From IMG/VR virus record IMGVR_UViG_3300009152_000030, positions 1-64,000 of that record: a DNA stretch of 64,000 nucleotides; one strand, 5' to 3'. The notes under the pieces are model-generated. The model searched no databases, was not told the DNA's origin, and was given only the letters and a program-made list of their open reading frames with translations. Source of the stretch: a virus. Both the position numbers and the translations under genes were made by a program. Positions 35,892 through 45,527 of this stretch are shown here, one piece after another; positions within the stretch are counted from its first letter, which is position 1, and the number at the start of each line of letters is the position of its first letter.

Positions 35892-36281
35892 TTAGAACGG
35901 ATCAATGTCCGTTACAGTTTCGATGACAGGCTCTGACGACTCTGCCTTCTTAGGGGCCTCACCGTACCGAACTACATCAGCGATGATCTCCGTGATCCAC
36001 CGACGCTCACCTGCTTCGGTCTTGTACTCACGAGTTTCACTGCGACCATCGATTTCTACCTGATGACCTTTACCGAGATACTTTGCAGCATTCTCGGCAT
36101 TGGTGCCAAAGACAACGACGCGATGGTATGAAGGCTTGGAGACCTTCTCACCCTTGGCATTTGTGTACCGATAGTTGGTACAGACGTTGAGAACCGCGCG
36201 CGACTGCGACGATTCGGAGCTCGTAAGCTCGGGATTCTTGGTAAGACGACCACGGACTCTAGACTCATTAAGATCTTGCAT
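35892..36281 (-). CDS. ssb: Single-stranded DNA-binding protein
   Basis: LN..GRLTKNPEL, HRVVVFG..AEN..KYLGKG, TEIIA, and a bacterial SSB-like DIDPF tail. Confidence 0.92.
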   Translation of the reverse strand: MQDLNESRVRGRLTKNPELTSSESSQSRAVLNVCTNYRYTNAKGEKVSKPSYHRVVVFGTNAENAAKYLGKGHQVEIDGRSETREYKTEAGERRWITEIIADVVRYGEAPKKAESSEPVIETVTDIDPF

Positions 36282-36347: not shown

Positions 36348-36361
36348 GGGGCGATAGCCCC
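36348..36361. repeat. Conserved hairpin GGGGC-GATA-GCCCC, copy 1 of 4
   Basis: Identical 14-mer at 36348, 36900, 39869 and 40556. Confidence 0.85.
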
Positions 36362-36899: not shown

Positions 36900-36913
36900 G
36901 GGGCGATAGCCCC
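36900..36913. repeat. Conserved hairpin GGGGC-GATA-GCCCC, copy 2 of 4
   Basis: Identical 14-mer preceded by AAAGAA. Confidence 0.85.
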
Positions 36914-37891: not shown

Positions 37892-38048
37892 GACAAACCT
37901 CTATATAAGGGGGTAAAAGTCTTCCTGACAGGATTCGAACCCATCTATTACCATAAGGAAGTGATGCAGCCTTTGTGGCTACCAGACATGACATCTGATA
38001 GGTTAGCCTACCGACAGGCAGGTTGCAGACTGTTGACCTATTGGACTA

Positions 38049-38630
38049 CTAGGACGAGACAGAGTTGCCCAGTTCCACCAGGAGATTGTTGAACTCCTCG
38101 ATGGGGCAGTCGGCGTCCTCAATCTTTGTCAGGAGGCTCTTGTGTCCCCAGAAAAGATTGATGAGGCCGTCCATGTCAGCCTTGACGTTCTTGACCGTGA
38201 AGTCAAAGTGCTTCGTCAAGGTGGGGATTGCGGCGTAGAAAGCATACGTCCCTCCAAACCGCTCCGAGTACACTTCCATTGTCGGGATGTGGTACAGGGT
38301 CTCGTTGATCTCCAGAGAGTCACGGAGGCGGATCCTATTGATCTTCGCGCTGACCCACTCCGAGACATATCCGTTTTCGGGATTGGGGAGGCCAATCGTG
38401 AAATTGACCTCGAACCCCTTGTGCGCATCATGGAACATCCCGTGCTCCACAATGTAGTACCCTTCCCCCTCAGCATTGTTGCCCCTGACGGCAGCGCTGA
38501 TCGTGGGGCCGCTGAACTCCGTGAGAGACACAGAGTAGGTGGTGTCGTACCCGAGATGGTTCATCCTCTTGGCGACCTCGGTCGCGAAAAGGATAACGGC
38601 TTCAAAGTCAAAGATCATCTGTTTTTTCAT
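38049..38630 (-). CDS. Hypothetical protein
   Basis: AGGTGA SD before MKKQMIF. Confidence 0.7.
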   Translation of the reverse strand: MKKQMIFDFEAVILFATEVAKRMNHLGYDTTYSVSLTEFSGPTISAAVRGNNAEGEGYYIVEHGMFHDAHKGFEVNFTIGLPNPENGYVSEWVSAKINRIRLRDSLEINETLYHIPTMEVYSERFGGTYAFYAAIPTLTKHFDFTVKNVKADMDGLINLFWGHKSLLTKIEDADCPIEEFNNLLVELGNSVSS

Positions 38631-39020: not shown

Positions 39021-39107
39021 TGGTAATTCAATCATATGGGAATCGAACCTATAACTATGTACTAGAACCGCAACTGCGGCATACATAGCGTCACCAGACT
39101 GATCAAA
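39021..39107 (-). ncRNA. tRNA-like element without a canonical anticodon arm
   Basis: Acceptor-like TTTGATCA/TGATTGAA, D-like GTC-TGGT-GAC, long stem GCTATGTA/TACATAGT, T arm GG-TTCGATT-CC, then TTACCA. Confidence 0.55.
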
Positions 39108-39125
39108 GGCCCGCTGCAGCAGACC

Positions 39126-39490
39126 ACCCATGTCTTTACCTCGGCACTAGTGGCAGGGCTCCACTAGCGACAAAGCCCATGTCTATCTCGTCACTAGTAG
39201 CAGGGCTCTACTAGTAACCACCTCATGTTCATCTTCTCCATTAGTGGCAGGGGTCCACTAACAGCCAGCCCATCGCTATAACCAGGTTTGCAACCCTGAC
39301 TACCTCTAGGTTCCCAATAAGTGGCAGGCTCACCTATGGTTTTTCTAGAGGATTTGAAGCCCATGTTTATCTCGTTACTAGCGGCAGGGCTCCAACTAGT
39401 AACCAGCCTTTTTATATAGCCAGGGTTACAACCCTAACTCTCACTAGGTTCCCATAAGCGGCAGGCGCACTTATGATTGTACTAGTAAAC
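39126..39490 (-). ncRNA. Tandem array of six structured RNA units (hairpin with conserved CCUG loop, putative pseudoknot)
   Basis: Four ~46-nt A units and two ~85-nt B units; compensatory stem changes; G-U pairs only in the minus-strand reading. Confidence 0.7.
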
Positions 39491-39610
39491 TCTCAAAGGA
39501 TGACGTCTTGCAGTACGAACAATAGGGTTTACATCCCCTATTATTCGCAATGTAACCTGCGTGACGCCGTAAACTTGTGAGCATTTTAGAGACCTACTCA
39601 GGTCTGAGGA

Positions 39611-39847
39611 TTATACGAAGAAGCGACGGGCCGTATGCACTGCCTCGATAAGAGAATCAGAGCCAGTGTTGGCGTCGCTCTCGTACTTCTTCTCATCGAG
39701 ACGCTCATTGATGGCATCCCACGGGTCATAAGACTCATGGTTCACGTCATCCAGGCTCAGAGTCTCCTTCTGAACCTCTTCGAAACTATCAGTCAAGATC
39801 GTAGCAGCACTAAACAACATGATATACCTCTTTGCATTGGTAGACAT
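39611..39847 (-). CDS. Hypothetical protein
   Basis: GGTGAG SD; ATG 21 nt after hairpin copy 3. Confidence 0.6.
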   Translation of the reverse strand: MSTNAKRYIMLFSAATILTDSFEEVQKETLSLDDVNHESYDPWDAINERLDEKKYESDANTGSDSLIEAVHTARRFFV

Positions 39848-39868: not shown

Positions 39869-39882
39869 GGGGCGATAGCCCC
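39869..39882. repeat. Conserved hairpin GGGGC-GATA-GCCCC, copy 3 of 4
   Basis: Identical 14-mer preceded by AAAGAA. Confidence 0.85.
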
Positions 39883-40007: not shown

Positions 40008-40430
40008 CTAGAAGGTGCCGTCGTCCGCAGTGGCCGTCTCGCGAAGCGCCGCAAGGGCCTCCGCAGCGGCATCTGCACCAGCGGATGAGGCCGCGGGAGC
40101 CGAAGCGCCAGCGGGGGAGCCAGTCTTGACGACGACGTTGGCGAGGATCTTGACGGCGAAGCCCTTGGAGCCATCCTTGCGGAGGAACTCTTCGTCTTCG
40201 GGGGTTCCGTCCACGAACACGGTGTCGCCCTTCTTGAGGATCTTCGCCATGTTCTCCGCGAGTGCGCCGAAGCACACGACGTCCCGCCACTTCACGACAG
40301 CGACGCCCTTGACCTTGCGGTTGACAGCGACGCGCATGGCGCAGATGGAAGTTCCCGACTGGCCCGTCAGGAGAATAGGGTCGGCTCCAAGGTTGCCGAC
40401 GACCTGAGTACGCTCAAAGCCCATGCTCAT
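40008..40430 (-). CDS. ssb: Single-stranded DNA-binding protein (second, GC-rich copy)
   Basis: VVGNLGADP, RVAVN, WRDVVCFGALAEN..KKGDTVFVDG; acidic tail DDGTF. Confidence 0.9.
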   Translation of the reverse strand: MSMGFERTQVVGNLGADPILLTGQSGTSICAMRVAVNRKVKGVAVVKWRDVVCFGALAENMAKILKKGDTVFVDGTPEDEEFLRKDGSKGFAVKILANVVVKTGSPAGASAPAASSAGADAAAEALAALRETATADDGTF

Positions 40431-40555: not shown

Positions 40556-40569
40556 GGGGCGATAGCCCC
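40556..40569. repeat. Conserved hairpin GGGGC-GATA-GCCCC, copy 4 of 4
   Basis: Identical 14-mer, followed by GAGCGAAGCGAG at 40571 and again at 40621. Confidence 0.85.
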
Positions 40570-41033: not shown

Positions 41034-44000
41034 CTACTTCTTTGCAAGGTCGTTCGGGTTGATGATAATCATCGGACGATTGACCTTCTTGGCGTAGTTG
41101 ACACAGTTGGATGTGCCACTCGGAGAACCATCCCAGATTGCGACAACCGCCTCGCAGTTATCAACCATCCAGTAGTTCCGTGCGTGGAGACACTTCTCTT
41201 TGCCTGCAAGGTCGTAGCCTTTCTTATTGACAAGCACAACTTGATGAGCAAGAGCAAGCATCTTCTTGTAACGCATCTTAGCTTCGTCACCCTTGAAGTA
41301 ATCACCATGGTCGCTGCAAGGACGAGCCACGATGAACTTGAGGCCAAGCTTGTGAGCCTCACGTGCGGCATCAGTGTCAACGCCAAGAGCACCACCAGTA
41401 ACGACGATGATCTCACGAGTTGCACTGTACTTGGCAATGGCACGCTTTAATGCATCTGCGATTGCATTCTTTACAGCAACACGCAGAGGATGATTCTCGT
41501 CATAGCCGCCAATCTTTTCGGGGCGATGACCAGTGAATGCAATCCTGTAGGGCTTTGCTTCCACGGCAACAACAGGCACAGCAGGAGCAGGCTTGGCTTC
41601 AACAGCAGGAGCGTCAACCGGGACCCAATTGACATCTGCCATGTTCTTAGGCTGCCACTTGCCGTTGACCATTACAAGTTGTACAGGCTGTGCCGCAGTG
41701 TACGTGCCTTCAAGTACTTCACTGAAGATTTGAGTCTCAGACTCTTCCTCGTCACTGTCGTACTCGCTAGCATACTGCTCCAGCTCTTCAGCGCTGACTG
41801 GATTCTCAGAACCAAAGGCATCTTCAAAGTTGAAGTCTGCCATGCCTGCGCTCTCCAGCATCTTGTCGTAGTCGATATTCTCAGAGACAGAGATATCGAA
41901 GAACTCCTTCTCGGGAGGAGGCTCGGGCTTGACCGGCTCTTGACCCTTGAAGGTCAGCCAGACGAAGTTACGAGTGTAGGTCTTGCCGTTGGCACCATGA
42001 CCGTCACGCTTCTCCACTTCGCTTGCCTCAACGGTAGCACCGCTGAAGAAGTTGTTGAGAGTACCGTGGTAGCCCATCATGCCGGCAATCTGCCACTGAG
42101 TCTTGCCCTTGAAGGCACCGTTGTTCTCGAATGCCTTGCGCGTCTCGCTGGTCTTGCGGAAGACCAAGTAAGCAACTGCGGCGGCGCGATGGTCCTGGTC
42201 AGGGTTACCGCGCTGTCCACCGTATGCAAGCTGAATGCGGTTGTCGCTGAGGAGCTGCTGGATGTTGAGGCCAACAAGCGACTGAGGATCAACAGTCTTG
42301 CCATCCTTGCTCTCACGAATGAGGAAGGCGGCGCGAACGTCGGCAGCAAGAAGCTTATCCTGAGTCTTCTTCACGGCAGCATCCTCAAGGAACTTGCAGA
42401 GAACTTCTGCGTAGCCCTTGTAGTTACCGGTCGAGGCAAAGTACATCTTGCGGCTGTAACCACCGCTGGAGGTAAGCTCACCCTGCGCGTCGATGGCGTC
42501 AGAGTCGATGATCTTTGTCTTGTTGCCTTCTTCGTCATCAAGGAACTCGACCTTACCCTTGCCCATGGACAGAGTAATAGGCTTTTCCGCAGACGTACCG
42601 AGAGCGGACATCAGCTCAGAAAGCACGAACATTTCGTACTTGTACTCAGCCTTATCCTCGTAGACCTCTTCGAAGAGAGGCCAGAGATCCTCGTGACGTG
42701 CTGCGAAGGCTGCATGGATGGGCTTCTGAGCGTAAACCCGACGAAGGGTCTTGAGCTCTTCAGCGTTCATCATGTAGCGAACCTTGTCGATTTCCTCGTA
42801 ACGATGCTTCATTGCCTCAGGCACAGTCATCATGTGACCATTGTCCTGGCTGTAGCGATTGACCGCATGATACTTACGGAACATGAAGGAGCCGAAGGTC
42901 GTGAGATTGAACTCACCCTCGTATTGCTCCTGCTCATCCCGGTAGTGCTTGCTGATCAGCTCATCAAGCTCATGCGAGTGCTCTTCAAGGAACGCCTGAA
43001 GATTGGAGGTCAGGAGAGTAGCAGTCTGAGTGCTGTGACCCTCATCGATGAACGACTTGAGGTTCGAGGTCATCGTCTTCCAGTAGCGTGTGAAGCTGCG
43101 GATGATGGGATGCTCAACCTTGACAGACCGACCATCTGCCGTGACAACCGTCTGACGAAGGCTCTGGCAGATCTTAGCGGTCATCGGGATCTTGCCCTCT
43201 TCGTCCTTGAACAAGGCAGGAGCAATGATGTTCTCGCCCGTGATCTCGGAGATTTCTCCCGTGTAACGCACAGCAACAGGTGCAGTTACAAGCGAAAGAA
43301 GGCTGACACCAAGCCGCTTGCGCACAGGCTTAAGGGCCGTCATCTTGCTAGGCTTAGCATCGGGATTCTCACGCATCGCATTGCGGTCGTTGAGTACCCA
43401 GCTGACAGCAATCATCGTCATGATAGCGTCGATGTTGTGCCATGCACGCCAAGCGCCGGGGAAGTCAGTGCCGCTCTGAGCAGCATCGACCACCAGCGAG
43501 ATCTCACCTTCCATCATGCAAGCTGCAAGAAGGGCGGATGGAGTCTTGACTACCGACGGCAGAATGATCAGGTCAGCAAGCAGATAGCTGCCGAACATCT
43601 GAGCATTTGCCATTGCGCCAACGATGGGCATGAACTCGTTATCACCAGGAAGGTGAATCATGTCCCACTTCTCTTCAGCAGTCTTGTCGGCAACCGAAGG
43701 ATCTGCAGGCTGAGCCTTCTCAGCAAGGGCCGTAATGTTGTACTTGATCAAGCCAGAAGGCGAGACAGTCTCGACCGTCTTGACATCAAAGTACGACGAC
43801 AGCAGCTTGTGACCATTCGGAATGGTGTTCACAAGATCAAGCTTTTCAGGAAGCTTAGCAAGGAAGGTGTGTGCCTTCTCGTAAGTATCCTGGACCTGCT
43901 GAACGGTGAACTGGCTCAGCTTGTAGTTACGCAGGTTCATAGAACGCAGCGCAAGCAAGCCAAGCTTACCGCACAGGAAGAACGCCTTGTCGTCAGCGTC

Positions 44001-45527
44001 ACCGCCGTCCATGCTAACAAGGACAGCCTTCTGCATGATCTCCGTGCTGCCGAAGTATGCAGTAGCGTGCAGGAACATGTCGTCCTTAAGGACAACATAG
44101 ATAACCCGCACATCGACCTTAGCCGAAGTAGGCCAACGAGCCGCAGCGCCAAGGCTATCCCGATGGTTGACGGCAAGCTCCTTCTCGTTCTCACCCTTCA
44201 CATCATGGATGTTAAGAGCAGGAACGTTGAGGTTCTTCGCAGCTTCTGCCGTGATAGCAATTGCCGCAAATCCCGTCTTGGCAAGGATCTGTTCCGACTT
44301 GGCGTTGAACGCTTCCTCGATCTTTGCCTTGCGGTCAAGCTCAGCCATGATGAGAAGACGACGCTTCTTCAGGCCAGCGGTTTCGTTTGCAAAGGCACCC
44401 TGCTTCTCCTCATGGAGCCACAGGTCACGGAACATACGCCAGACAAGAGCGCGGGGATACGAGGTAAAGCCACAAGGGCCGTCCTTTGTAACCGCGTTGA
44501 TGCGAAGCTTGCTCTGCGTAACGTCTTCGCTGACACTGTTGACTAGAGTAGTCACAGTAGCAGGAATTGCGCCAGGGTGAACACCAAGGCTAAGAAGCAT
44601 CTTGGTGATCTTTGCCTTGAATGTTGAGGACGTTTCCGTTGCCTCAAGGACGTCGCCATCGAGACCCTTAAGGGCATTCTTGACGTAGTCATCCCAGTGC
44701 GAGATGTTCCAGTCAATCATCTCGTTGAGGATCGCATGGAACTTCGGGTCGTTGAGCACCTGACCAAACAGGGCGCTCAAGTTCTGGACGCCGAGAAGGA
44801 CACCAGGCTCAGACTTCATCTCACCAACGGTCGGCTGCACCATAAGCGCAACATCGGGAGAGAGATCAGGCTTGAGATCCTGCTTGCCTTCGGAGCTCAG
44901 CAGGAAGACATGGGGCGGAAGCCAAAGCTTGACCGCACCCATTGCGCCCTTATAGTACGCTTCGAGCTTAACCACACGGCGAACCTGCATGCCCTGCGTC
45001 ATGGGGCCAGGGGTGAGCTCTGCAGTGCCCATGTAGTGGACACCGTCCTGGATTGCCTTGTAGGCAGGATCCAAGTCAGCCATGTCTACAACCTTGCCAG
45101 TTGCAGATACGATGGCGCTGTAGGTGGCCGTCATCATGGAACGCGCATACTTGCGGCCCTTCTGAGCGGTCTTGCTGGTATACCCAACAGAACCCACAAG
45201 CTTTGCCTTCAGCGCCTTAGGCACCATCAGCGTCTCCATGCTGCTAACAGCAAAGAGGGCAACGTGACCGTCCGGGCATTTCTGCCCTTTCTCAACCACA
45301 GGGTGGTCGAGGAGGCTTTCAAAGCCCGGAAGATCGGAATAGGGGCTCTTAACCCCGGAATACTCGAGATGCTCTCGATAGCTACGGTACATAGTACCCT
45401 CCTTGTCAGTAACCAAAATGGTTACGTTCTGTTTCATGTTTTCTACCATTCGCCCATATCCATTGTAACAACAGGAAGAGTCGGAGCAACTACTGATACT
45501 GTCTCCATCTTGAAGCCAGAGTCCCAA
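41034..45527 (-). CDS. Putative single-chain two-barrel RNA polymerase (YonO/cellular RdRP-like) fused to a C-terminal YspA-type SLOG domain
   Basis: Ordered motifs QDG, QVR..YKG, RWP, GGDADD; SLOG: IAFTGHRP, GGALGVD, RNYWMVD, WDGSPSGT. True start probably 45449 or 45437. Confidence 0.65.
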   Translation of the reverse strand: MGLWLQDGDSISSCSDSSCCYNGYGRMVENMKQNVTILVTDKEGTMYRSYREHLEYSGVKSPYSDLPGFESLLDHPVVEKGQKCPDGHVALFAVSSMETLMVPKALKAKLVGSVGYTSKTAQKGRKYARSMMTATYSAIVSATGKVVDMADLDPAYKAIQDGVHYMGTAELTPGPMTQGMQVRRVVKLEAYYKGAMGAVKLWLPPHVFLLSSEGKQDLKPDLSPDVALMVQPTVGEMKSEPGVLLGVQNLSALFGQVLNDPKFHAILNEMIDWNISHWDDYVKNALKGLDGDVLEATETSSTFKAKITKMLLSLGVHPGAIPATVTTLVNSVSEDVTQSKLRINAVTKDGPCGFTSYPRALVWRMFRDLWLHEEKQGAFANETAGLKKRRLLIMAELDRKAKIEEAFNAKSEQILAKTGFAAIAITAEAAKNLNVPALNIHDVKGENEKELAVNHRDSLGAAARWPTSAKVDVRVIYVVLKDDMFLHATAYFGSTEIMQKAVLVSMDGGDADDKAFFLCGKLGLLALRSMNLRNYKLSQFTVQQVQDTYEKAHTFLAKLPEKLDLVNTIPNGHKLLSSYFDVKTVETVSPSGLIKYNITALAEKAQPADPSVADKTAEEKWDMIHLPGDNEFMPIVGAMANAQMFGSYLLADLIILPSVVKTPSALLAACMMEGEISLVVDAAQSGTDFPGAWRAWHNIDAIMTMIAVSWVLNDRNAMRENPDAKPSKMTALKPVRKRLGVSLLSLVTAPVAVRYTGEISEITGENIIAPALFKDEEGKIPMTAKICQSLRQTVVTADGRSVKVEHPIIRSFTRYWKTMTSNLKSFIDEGHSTQTATLLTSNLQAFLEEHSHELDELISKHYRDEQEQYEGEFNLTTFGSFMFRKYHAVNRYSQDNGHMMTVPEAMKHRYEEIDKVRYMMNAEELKTLRRVYAQKPIHAAFAARHEDLWPLFEEVYEDKAEYKYEMFVLSELMSALGTSAEKPITLSMGKGKVEFLDDEEGNKTKIIDSDAIDAQGELTSSGGYSRKMYFASTGNYKGYAEVLCKFLEDAAVKKTQDKLLAADVRAAFLIRESKDGKTVDPQSLVGLNIQQLLSDNRIQLAYGGQRGNPDQDHRAAAVAYLVFRKTSETRKAFENNGAFKGKTQWQIAGMMGYHGTLNNFFSGATVEASEVEKRDGHGANGKTYTRNFVWLTFKGQEPVKPEPPPEKEFFDISVSENIDYDKMLESAGMADFNFEDAFGSENPVSAEELEQYASEYDSDEEESETQIFSEVLEGTYTAAQPVQLVMVNGKWQPKNMADVNWVPVDAPAVEAKPAPAVPVVAVEAKPYRIAFTGHRPEKIGGYDENHPLRVAVKNAIADALKRAIAKYSATREIIVVTGGALGVDTDAAREAHKLGLKFIVARPCSDHGDYFKGDEAKMRYKKMLALAHQVVLVNKKGYDLAGKEKCLHARNYWMVDNCEAVVAIWDGSPSGTSNCVNYAKKVNRPMIIINPNDLAKK

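What the first reader, a model, noticed from the sequence alone, without database searches (positions are those of the whole stretch)
39126..39490. Tandem array of covarying hairpin-pseudoknot RNA units
Seen (minus strand, 5'->3' order B-A-B-A-A-A). A units lie at ~39358-39403, 39220-39265, 39174-39219 and 39126-39172. Each is a 10-11 bp stem with loop AGCCCUG (once ACCCCUG), a purine-rich linker (GAGAUAAA-like), then CAUGGGCU. Stems covary (GUGG/CCAC vs GUAG/CUAC; CUAG/CUAG vs UUAG/CUAA) and G-U wobbles work only on the minus strand. Loop AGCCC pairs with downstream GGGCU. In the unit whose loop is ACCCC the tail is GAGGU, a compensatory G-C to C-G change (with one mismatch) that supports an H-type pseudoknot. 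B units (~39405-39488, 39267-39352) keep a GCCUGC loop, add a second hairpin (AGGGUUGYAA.CCUG) and end in AGGC/GGGCU. The AUGs open no consistent reading frame. Established: tandem pseudoknot repeats are the hallmark of type III toxin-antitoxin RNAs (ToxI/AntiQ/CptI), and phages can use mimics of them as anti-defence decoys. Inference: an undescribed phage ncRNA array, possibly an antitoxin mimic or protein sponge, a nuclease-resistant RNA, or a template for the neighbouring polymerase. No toxin gene is adjacent.
Basis: partly seen in the sequence, partly recalled or inferred. Interest (0 to 1): 0.85.

Follow-up and report, generated by a model that had tools for sequence, protein, structure and literature searches.

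The report
Expandable phage pseudoknot RNA with tRNA-mimic
An uncultured 174-kb phage carries an uncatalogued early non-coding RNA made of small knot-shaped folds packed end to end, whose number changes between close relatives and which ends in a tRNA look-alike; it is most likely a decoy for a host protein, but no function has been shown.

Summary
The array is real: six H-type pseudoknot units (B-A-B-A-A-A) on the minus strand (fold z -3.05; plus strand -0.22), single-copy in the genome, no Rfam match. Across 21 distinct A units from this phage and relatives, the loop-tail helix is paired in 82 of 84 cells, with compensatory swaps no shuffle reached; B units pair at 97%. The units are the middle of a larger early ncRNA: a conserved 5' domain, 0-2 B and 0-5 A units depending on the phage, then a covarying tRNA-like element without CCA. 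In two relatives it has its own copy of a repeated phage promoter-like motif, in one of them behind a terminator. It is nearly unchanged in phages whose polymerases are 23% identical, so it is not that enzyme's template. The fold has CptI/TenpI geometry, but units abut (0-5 nt), lack the single-stranded tails those toxins bind, and no type III toxin was found. Best reading: an uncut, copy-number-tuned protein decoy (0.38); rivals are an RNA stabiliser or a true antitoxin mimic. Expression could not be tested. The scan noted this family before, in a 176-kb relative (e1-5645070).

The parts
39869..39882 (-). Hairpin repeated four times before early genes; likely phage early promoter driving the acidic ORF and the RNA (inferred)
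   Evidence: Four identical copies at 36348, 36900, 39869, 40556
39611..39820 (-). 69-aa acidic ORF of no known family, directly upstream of the RNA in most relatives
   Evidence: Homologues 63-94% identical; no NCBIfam family; Atlas leads only
39578..39605 (-). Optional small H-type pseudoknot (module C), not in all relatives
   Evidence: Hairpin with loop complementary to a downstream 5-mer; G-U to A-U variant in L016
39497..39573 (-). Conserved multi-stem 5' domain (module D); exact fold unresolved
   Evidence: Found in 9 loci, two subtypes
39405..39488 (-). B1: two-part stem, 7-nt loop, hairpin inside the long loop, pseudoknot tail
   Evidence: the inner hairpin carries a ~110-nt insertion in L001 and L017
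39358..39403 (-). A1 pseudoknot unit
39267..39351 (-). B2 pseudoknot unit
39220..39265 (-). A2 pseudoknot unit (C-G at loop position 2; one mismatch that is a perfect pair in L001 and L004)
39174..39218 (-). A3 pseudoknot unit
39125..39171 (-). A4 pseudoknot unit
39108..39124 (-). Short linker hairpin, replaced by other modules in relatives
39027..39107 (-). tRNA-like element: 8-bp acceptor-like stem, mini D arm, variable arm, T arm with canonical T loop; no anticodon arm, no CCA
   Evidence: 97% of cells paired, 7 pairs changed on both sides; Rfam tRNA match below threshold in L021; not called by ARAGORN

Best explanation
The region is a phage early non-coding RNA. Shown: a conserved 5' domain, a variable number of abutting H-type pseudoknots (9-12 bp first stem, one-base first loop, about 6-bp second stem with an invariant unpaired A, A-rich long loop), and a tRNA-like 3' end. 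Inferred: it is made early from a phage promoter; the tRNA-like end is cut by host tRNA-processing enzymes or protects the end; the pseudoknots stay joined and each shows the same small junction surface to a host RNA-binding defence or nuclease protein, titrating it. Adding or dropping units sets the dose, and the stems have drifted apart while the core is kept.
For: Structure kept while stems change: A units 88.5% of cells paired, 7 pairs with two-sided change, 0/500 shuffles; hand-registered pseudoknot helix 82/84 paired, Watson-Crick at the two variable positions 39/42 against 26.6 in shuffles, 0/20000; B 96.9%. A small invariant core (closing G-C, loop 3, loop 7 with tail 1, tail A) sits in variable stems, as expected of a repeated binding surface. 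Unit number differs among relatives: A 1 (L013, L021), 2 (L008, L017), 3 (L001, L006), 4 (window, L009), at least 5 (L004), none (L002); B 0-2. In L013 and L008 a motif repeated about 10 times at regular intervals along the early region also stands directly before the RNA, in L013 behind a terminator that ends the acidic ORF, so it is probably a gene of its own. It lies in the early region after the polymerase and SSB genes. Same geometry as CptI and TenpI, which are protein-binding RNAs (PMC4627078, PMC13682666); repeat expansion of a pseudoknot RNA is a proven phage counter-defence (PMC3475682).
Against: No partner protein is known and none was found: no ToxN, CptN, TenpN or Ro60 in the phage, no match of the A model above noise in 151 Myxococcota genomes. 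Copy-number change also fits a stabilising or spacer role. L002 lacks A, B and D altogether and has other folds in the slot, so the modules are dispensable. The host is only a weak lead.
Confidence: 0.38

Rival explanations
1. Stabiliser or roadblock: the stacked pseudoknots block exoribonucleases, protecting the tRNA-like element, the upstream ORF message (after RNase P cuts at the tRNA-like end) or the downstream early message; more units give a longer half-life.
For: Units abut and could stack into a rigid rod; unrelated sequences with the same H-type design fill the same slot in L001 and L002, so shape may matter more than sequence; pseudoknots upstream of a tRNA-like end recall the TMV 3' region (PMC4683447) and, from my own knowledge, MALAT1 with mascRNA.
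Against: In L013 and L008 there is no upstream message to protect; an invariant unpaired A and fixed loop bases are more than a plain block needs; no match to Rfam xrRNA families.
Confidence: 0.22
2. True type III antitoxin mimic: a CptN/TenpN-like host RNase cuts the array into about 46-nt monomers and is inhibited by them, as with PhiTE pseudo-ToxI.
For: Unit length 45-48 nt against 45 nt for CptI; one-base L1, long first stem, A-rich long loop and non-identical repeats as in TenpI (PMC4627078, PMC13682666, PMC12283969); expansion and contraction as in PhiTE (PMC3475682).
Against: All solved type III complexes bind single-stranded 5' and 3' tails (PMC13682666), but the spacers here are 0-5 nt, mostly U and G, with no conserved A-rich site, and the base of stem 1 covaries, so it is paired. 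No bacterial locus with such units; ToxN, TenpN and CptN not found in 301 Myxococcota genomes (no positive control rang, and the host is uncertain).
Confidence: 0.12
3. Translation-machinery binder: the pseudoknot run plus tRNA-like end binds ribosomes, elongation factors or tRNA-processing enzymes, favouring phage translation or soaking up tRNA-targeting nucleases.
For: Conserved tRNA-like element in every relative, even where the pseudoknots are replaced; TMV has three consecutive pseudoknots before a tRNA-like structure and they bind eEF1A (PMC4683447).
Against: No CCA and no anticodon arm; the TMV likeness is architectural only, in a plant RNA virus; here the element is internal to an early transcript.
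Confidence: 0.12
4. Each unit is a small-molecule aptamer (a sponge for a nucleotide signal) or a self-cleaving ribozyme.
For: Invariant unpaired A beside a U-U or A-G/A-C opposition at the helix junction; from my own knowledge, small H-type pseudoknots with A-rich long loops form the preQ1-I and SAM-II pockets, and the same A-minor twist occurs in SAM-II and CptI (PMC4627078).
Against: No Rfam riboswitch or ribozyme match even at E up to 10; a one-base L1 cannot form the SAM-II triplex; no expression platform; self-cleavage would release units with no cargo.
Confidence: 0.1
5. Template, primer or promoter for the neighbouring QDE-1-like polymerase, or a single-stranded DNA signal.
For: It lies 1.5 kb downstream of the polymerase gene, and this phage seems to use hairpins as promoters.
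Against: Cassette 89% identical in L006, whose polymerase is 23% identical; absent in L002, whose polymerase is 94% identical; G-U pairs, GNRA and UUCG loops and a T loop are RNA features; no reverse transcriptase in the genome.
Confidence: 0.03

Closest known systems
CptI and TenpI, type III antitoxin RNAs (PMC4627078, PMC13682666)
   Same: Tandem H-type pseudoknots of about 45 nt; one-base L1; coaxial stems; long A-rich loop along stem 1; non-identical repeats (TenpI).
   Different: No toxin gene, no promoter-array-terminator-toxin layout, no single-stranded tails or A-rich cut site between units, stem 1 about twice as long as in CptI, a second unit type with an extra hairpin, a tRNA-like 3' end.
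PhiTE pseudo-ToxI (PMC3475682)
   Same: Intergenic phage ncRNA of pseudoknot repeats whose number varies; no toxin in the phage.
   Different: Pseudo-ToxI is a near copy of a host antitoxin with near-identical repeats; here no host counterpart was found, the fold is not ToxI-like and the units are diverged, shuffled modules.
TMV upstream pseudoknot domain plus tRNA-like structure (PMC4683447)
   Same: Consecutive pseudoknots followed by a tRNA mimic.
   Different: Plant RNA virus 3' end, aminoacylated, pseudoknotted acceptor; here a DNA phage, internal element, no CCA, no sequence likeness tested or claimed.
tmRNA tRNA-like domain and bacterial Y RNA YrlA (own knowledge)
   Same: D-like loop and T loop kept, anticodon arm replaced by an extensible helix.
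   Different: No CCA, no G-U alanine mark, no tag frame (ARAGORN finds no tmRNA); arm order is that of tRNA, not the permuted order of YrlA, and no Ro60 is encoded.

Membership tests
Type III toxin-antitoxin antitoxin (ToxI/AntiQ/CptI/TenpI) | Tandem repeats each folding into an H-type pseudoknot | tested here: met
Type III toxin-antitoxin antitoxin (ToxI/AntiQ/CptI/TenpI) | Cognate toxin gene downstream of the array, behind a terminator | tested here: not met
   No ToxN, TenpN or CptN in the genome; no terminator after the array
Type III toxin-antitoxin antitoxin (ToxI/AntiQ/CptI/TenpI) | Single-stranded 5' and 3' tails with an A-rich toxin cut site between pseudoknots | tested here: not met
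   Spacers before A units are 0-5 nt, mostly U/G; base of stem 1 covaries
Type III toxin-antitoxin antitoxin (ToxI/AntiQ/CptI/TenpI) | Match to Rfam ToxI or related models | tested here: not met
Type III toxin-antitoxin antitoxin (ToxI/AntiQ/CptI/TenpI) | Processed by, and inhibits, a type III toxin | not testable with these tools
   needs co-expression assays
Phage antitoxin mimic (pseudo-ToxI type) | Sequence likeness to a host antitoxin | tested here: inconclusive
   No bacterial or plasmid counterpart found, but the host is unknown
Phage antitoxin mimic (pseudo-ToxI type) | Repeat number varies between related phages | tested here: met
   0 to at least 5 A units
Phage antitoxin mimic (pseudo-ToxI type) | Expressed during infection | not tested
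tRNA / tmRNA (3' element) | Acceptor-like stem, D-like loop and T arm | tested here: met
   sub-threshold Rfam tRNA hit in L021
tRNA / tmRNA (3' element) | Anticodon arm or tag frame, 7-bp acceptor and CCA | tested here: not met
Known riboswitches, self-cleaving ribozymes and xrRNAs in Rfam | Covariance-model match | tested here: not met
VIPR vrRNA (10.64898/2026.04.26.720920) | 9-16 tandem five-base repeats of alternating fixed and variable positions | tested here: not met
   Repeat units here are 45-85 nt folded modules

The most novel reading that the evidence does not exclude
A new class of phage counter-defence RNA: a modular cassette, swapped between phages with different polymerases, in which each pseudoknot type traps a different host defence component without being cut, possibly a small nucleotide signal rather than a protein, with the tRNA mimic as a further decoy.
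Probability: 0.15. Interest if true: 0.88.

Novelty: new variant of a known kind. Interest (0 to 1): 0.58.

Why it matters
RNA-based counter-defence is known from few cases, and the type III example copies a host antitoxin. A natural, copy-number-variable array of diverged pseudoknots with a tRNA-like end, moving between phages as a cassette, would widen that class and point to an unknown host defence. The natural variants (0 to at least 5 units, compensatory pairs) give ready-made constructs for probing, pull-down and toxin-rescue tests. If it proves to be a stabiliser instead, it is a compact bacterial RNA-protection module.

Tried and rejected
Rfam at gathering and at E up to 10: nothing on the array. 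BLASTN against cultured phages and plasmids: nothing. Bacterial genome patterns: none for B; 30 hits for a tandem-A pattern were all rejected by the A model; one D-pattern hit lay in a coding region and is chance. A model in 151 Myxococcota genomes: four single hits of 21-23 bits matching mainly the tail, against 33-68 bits for true units. Type III toxins in 301 Myxococcota genomes: none, but no control rang. Myxococcus phage Mx1 is not a relative (only the SLOG domain matches, capsid does not). Read-through or frameshift of the acidic ORF into the array: no conserved frame. A wider T-arm pattern brought only ordinary tRNAs. One search used a mis-registered structure string and is superseded. 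Paper searches found no description of this RNA, within a library that lacks most subscription journals.

Full report
Setting. The window is the first 64 kb of a single 174,117-base phage contig, 39.7% G+C. The finding lies in the early region, downstream of a 1,471-aa polymerase-like protein with a SLOG tail, an SSB gene and a 69-aa acidic ORF, all on the minus strand. A 14-base hairpin is repeated four times before early genes, one copy just upstream of the acidic ORF. No cultured phage is close. The host is unknown; one protein resembles Myxococcota surface proteins at lead level only (score 0.84).

The observation. The minus strand folds better than all 100 shuffles (z -3.05) and the plus strand does not (z -0.22); each unit alone is more stable on the minus strand. 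The motif is found only here in the genome. Rfam has no match at gathering scores or at E up to 10. No reading frame is conserved through the region in relatives.

Relatives. Protein and pattern searches gave related loci in IMG/VR, JGI, ENA, NCBI and Logan. They yield 21 distinct A units and 10 B units. For A, 88.5% of cells pair, seven pairs change on both sides, and no shuffle or slid register comes near. Registered by hand, the pseudoknot helix (loop positions 2-5 with tail positions 7-4) is paired in 82 of 84 cells; position 2 is G-C in 8 units and C-G in 10, position 5 is C-G in 19 and U-A in 2; Watson-Crick pairs at these two positions number 39 of 42 against 26.6 in shuffled tails, 0 of 20,000. 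These counts are of sequences, not independent events, but the G-C/C-G swap occurs within single arrays and the U-A swap in two different unit subtypes. Loop position 1 varies against a nearly fixed U and is best read as a one-base L1. Loop position 7 pairs with tail position 1: G-C in all 21 A units, C-G in 7 of 10 B units, leaving an invariant unpaired A in the tail. B units pair in 96.9% of cells with six two-sided changes, one of them in the pseudoknot; their second hairpin lies inside the long loop and takes a 110-nt insertion in L001 and L017. A and B are therefore two versions of one design.

The larger RNA. The array sits between a conserved 5' domain and a tRNA-like element with an 8-bp acceptor-like stem, a mini D arm, an extensible variable arm and a canonical T loop; 97% of its cells pair and seven pairs change on both sides. 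It has no anticodon arm and no CCA. The number of units between these ends differs: one A unit in L013 and L021, two in L008 and L017, three in L001 and L006, four in the window and L009, at least five in L004, where a second tRNA-like element interrupts the run. L002, whose polymerase is 94% identical, has none: other folds, one an H-type pseudoknot of unrelated sequence, precede the same tRNA-like end. L006 has a polymerase only 23% identical and a different SSB-slot gene, yet 89% identity over 441 bases of the cassette. So the cassette moves and is rebuilt by module exchange, independently of the polymerase. In L013 and L008 a motif repeated about ten times along the early region also stands just before the 5' domain, in L013 behind a terminator that closes the acidic ORF. 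That makes it probably a transcription unit of its own there (inference); in the window it is probably co-transcribed with the acidic ORF. An earlier AI note (e1-5645070) says the fold is present in RNA libraries; I did not verify this and do not count it.

How it most likely works. Shown: a repeated fold with a small invariant core and free stems, a variable copy number, an early position and a tRNA-like end. Inferred: the RNA is made early and in quantity, stays in one piece because the units abut, and presents several copies of one binding surface to a host protein, most plausibly an RNA-binding defence or nuclease protein; the number of units tunes the dose. I give this 0.38. The stabiliser reading (0.22) explains abutting units and interchangeable pseudoknots, but less well the invariant junction bases and the stand-alone gene. 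A true type III mimic (0.12), a translation-machinery binder (0.12), an aptamer or ribozyme (0.10) and a polymerase template (0.03) follow.

Comparison with known systems. It works like, if anything, PhiTE pseudo-ToxI, where expansion of a pseudoknot repeat suppresses ToxN (PMC3475682). Its fold matches the CptI/TenpI geometry: one-base L1, coaxial stems, long A-rich loop, and in TenpI non-identical repeats (PMC4627078, PMC13682666, PMC12283969). It is not a member of that family: there is no toxin in the genome, no terminator after the array, and the spacers before A units are 0-5 nt, mostly U and G, whereas type III toxins bind single-stranded tails on both sides of the pseudoknot (PMC13682666). 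No bacterial or plasmid counterpart was found, and no type III toxin in 301 Myxococcota genomes, a weak negative. Consecutive pseudoknots before a tRNA mimic also describe the TMV 3' region (PMC4683447); this is an architectural likeness only. No paper describing this RNA was found.

Verdict. A real, uncatalogued, modular phage ncRNA with good structural support and no demonstrated function, seen so far in a small group of related aquatic phage contigs. I class it as a new variant of a known kind (phage repeat-expanded pseudoknot RNA), interest 0.58. The scan found the same family before in a 176-kb relative (e1-5645070).

Noticed in passing
window 36348-36361, 36900-36913, 39869-39882, 40556-40569: Four identical 14-base hairpins before early genes; relatives L013 and L008 use a different repeated motif along their early regions. 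Likely promoters of a phage polymerase.
   Followed up: partly
window 37918-38050 (minus): A second conserved structured intergenic stretch with hairpins and a T-loop-like arm, also in L001, L002 and L006.
   Followed up: no
window 41034-45449 (minus): Polymerase-like protein with a DGGDADD motif fused to a YspA-type SLOG domain; no cultured phage matches outside the SLOG part.
   Followed up: no
L036 4973-5524 (genome 148973-149524, minus): 183-aa secreted protein with a MYXO-CTERM-like tail; only a lead for a Myxococcota host (Atlas 0.84, no NCBIfam hit).
   Followed up: partly
window 39283-39297 (B2 inner hairpin) and L001 16150-16160: The inner hairpin loop of most B units holds the five-base site cut by Myxococcus MazF-mx (PMC5408214), kept even in the insertion variant; B1 of the window has a one-base change, and the loop also fits a GNRA tetraloop, so this may be chance.
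   Followed up: no
L001 15852-16002 and 16500-16612; L002 15726-15925: Further exchangeable structured modules in the same slot, several with H-type pseudoknot potential.
   Followed up: partly
window 35892-36281 and 40008-40430: Two SSB genes, about 35% identical, each behind a copy of the hairpin.
   Followed up: no
window 39578-39605: Module C has the one-base-L1 design that, from my own knowledge, is shared with the T4 gene 32 autoregulatory pseudoknot; it lies downstream, not upstream, of the SSB gene.
   Followed up: no
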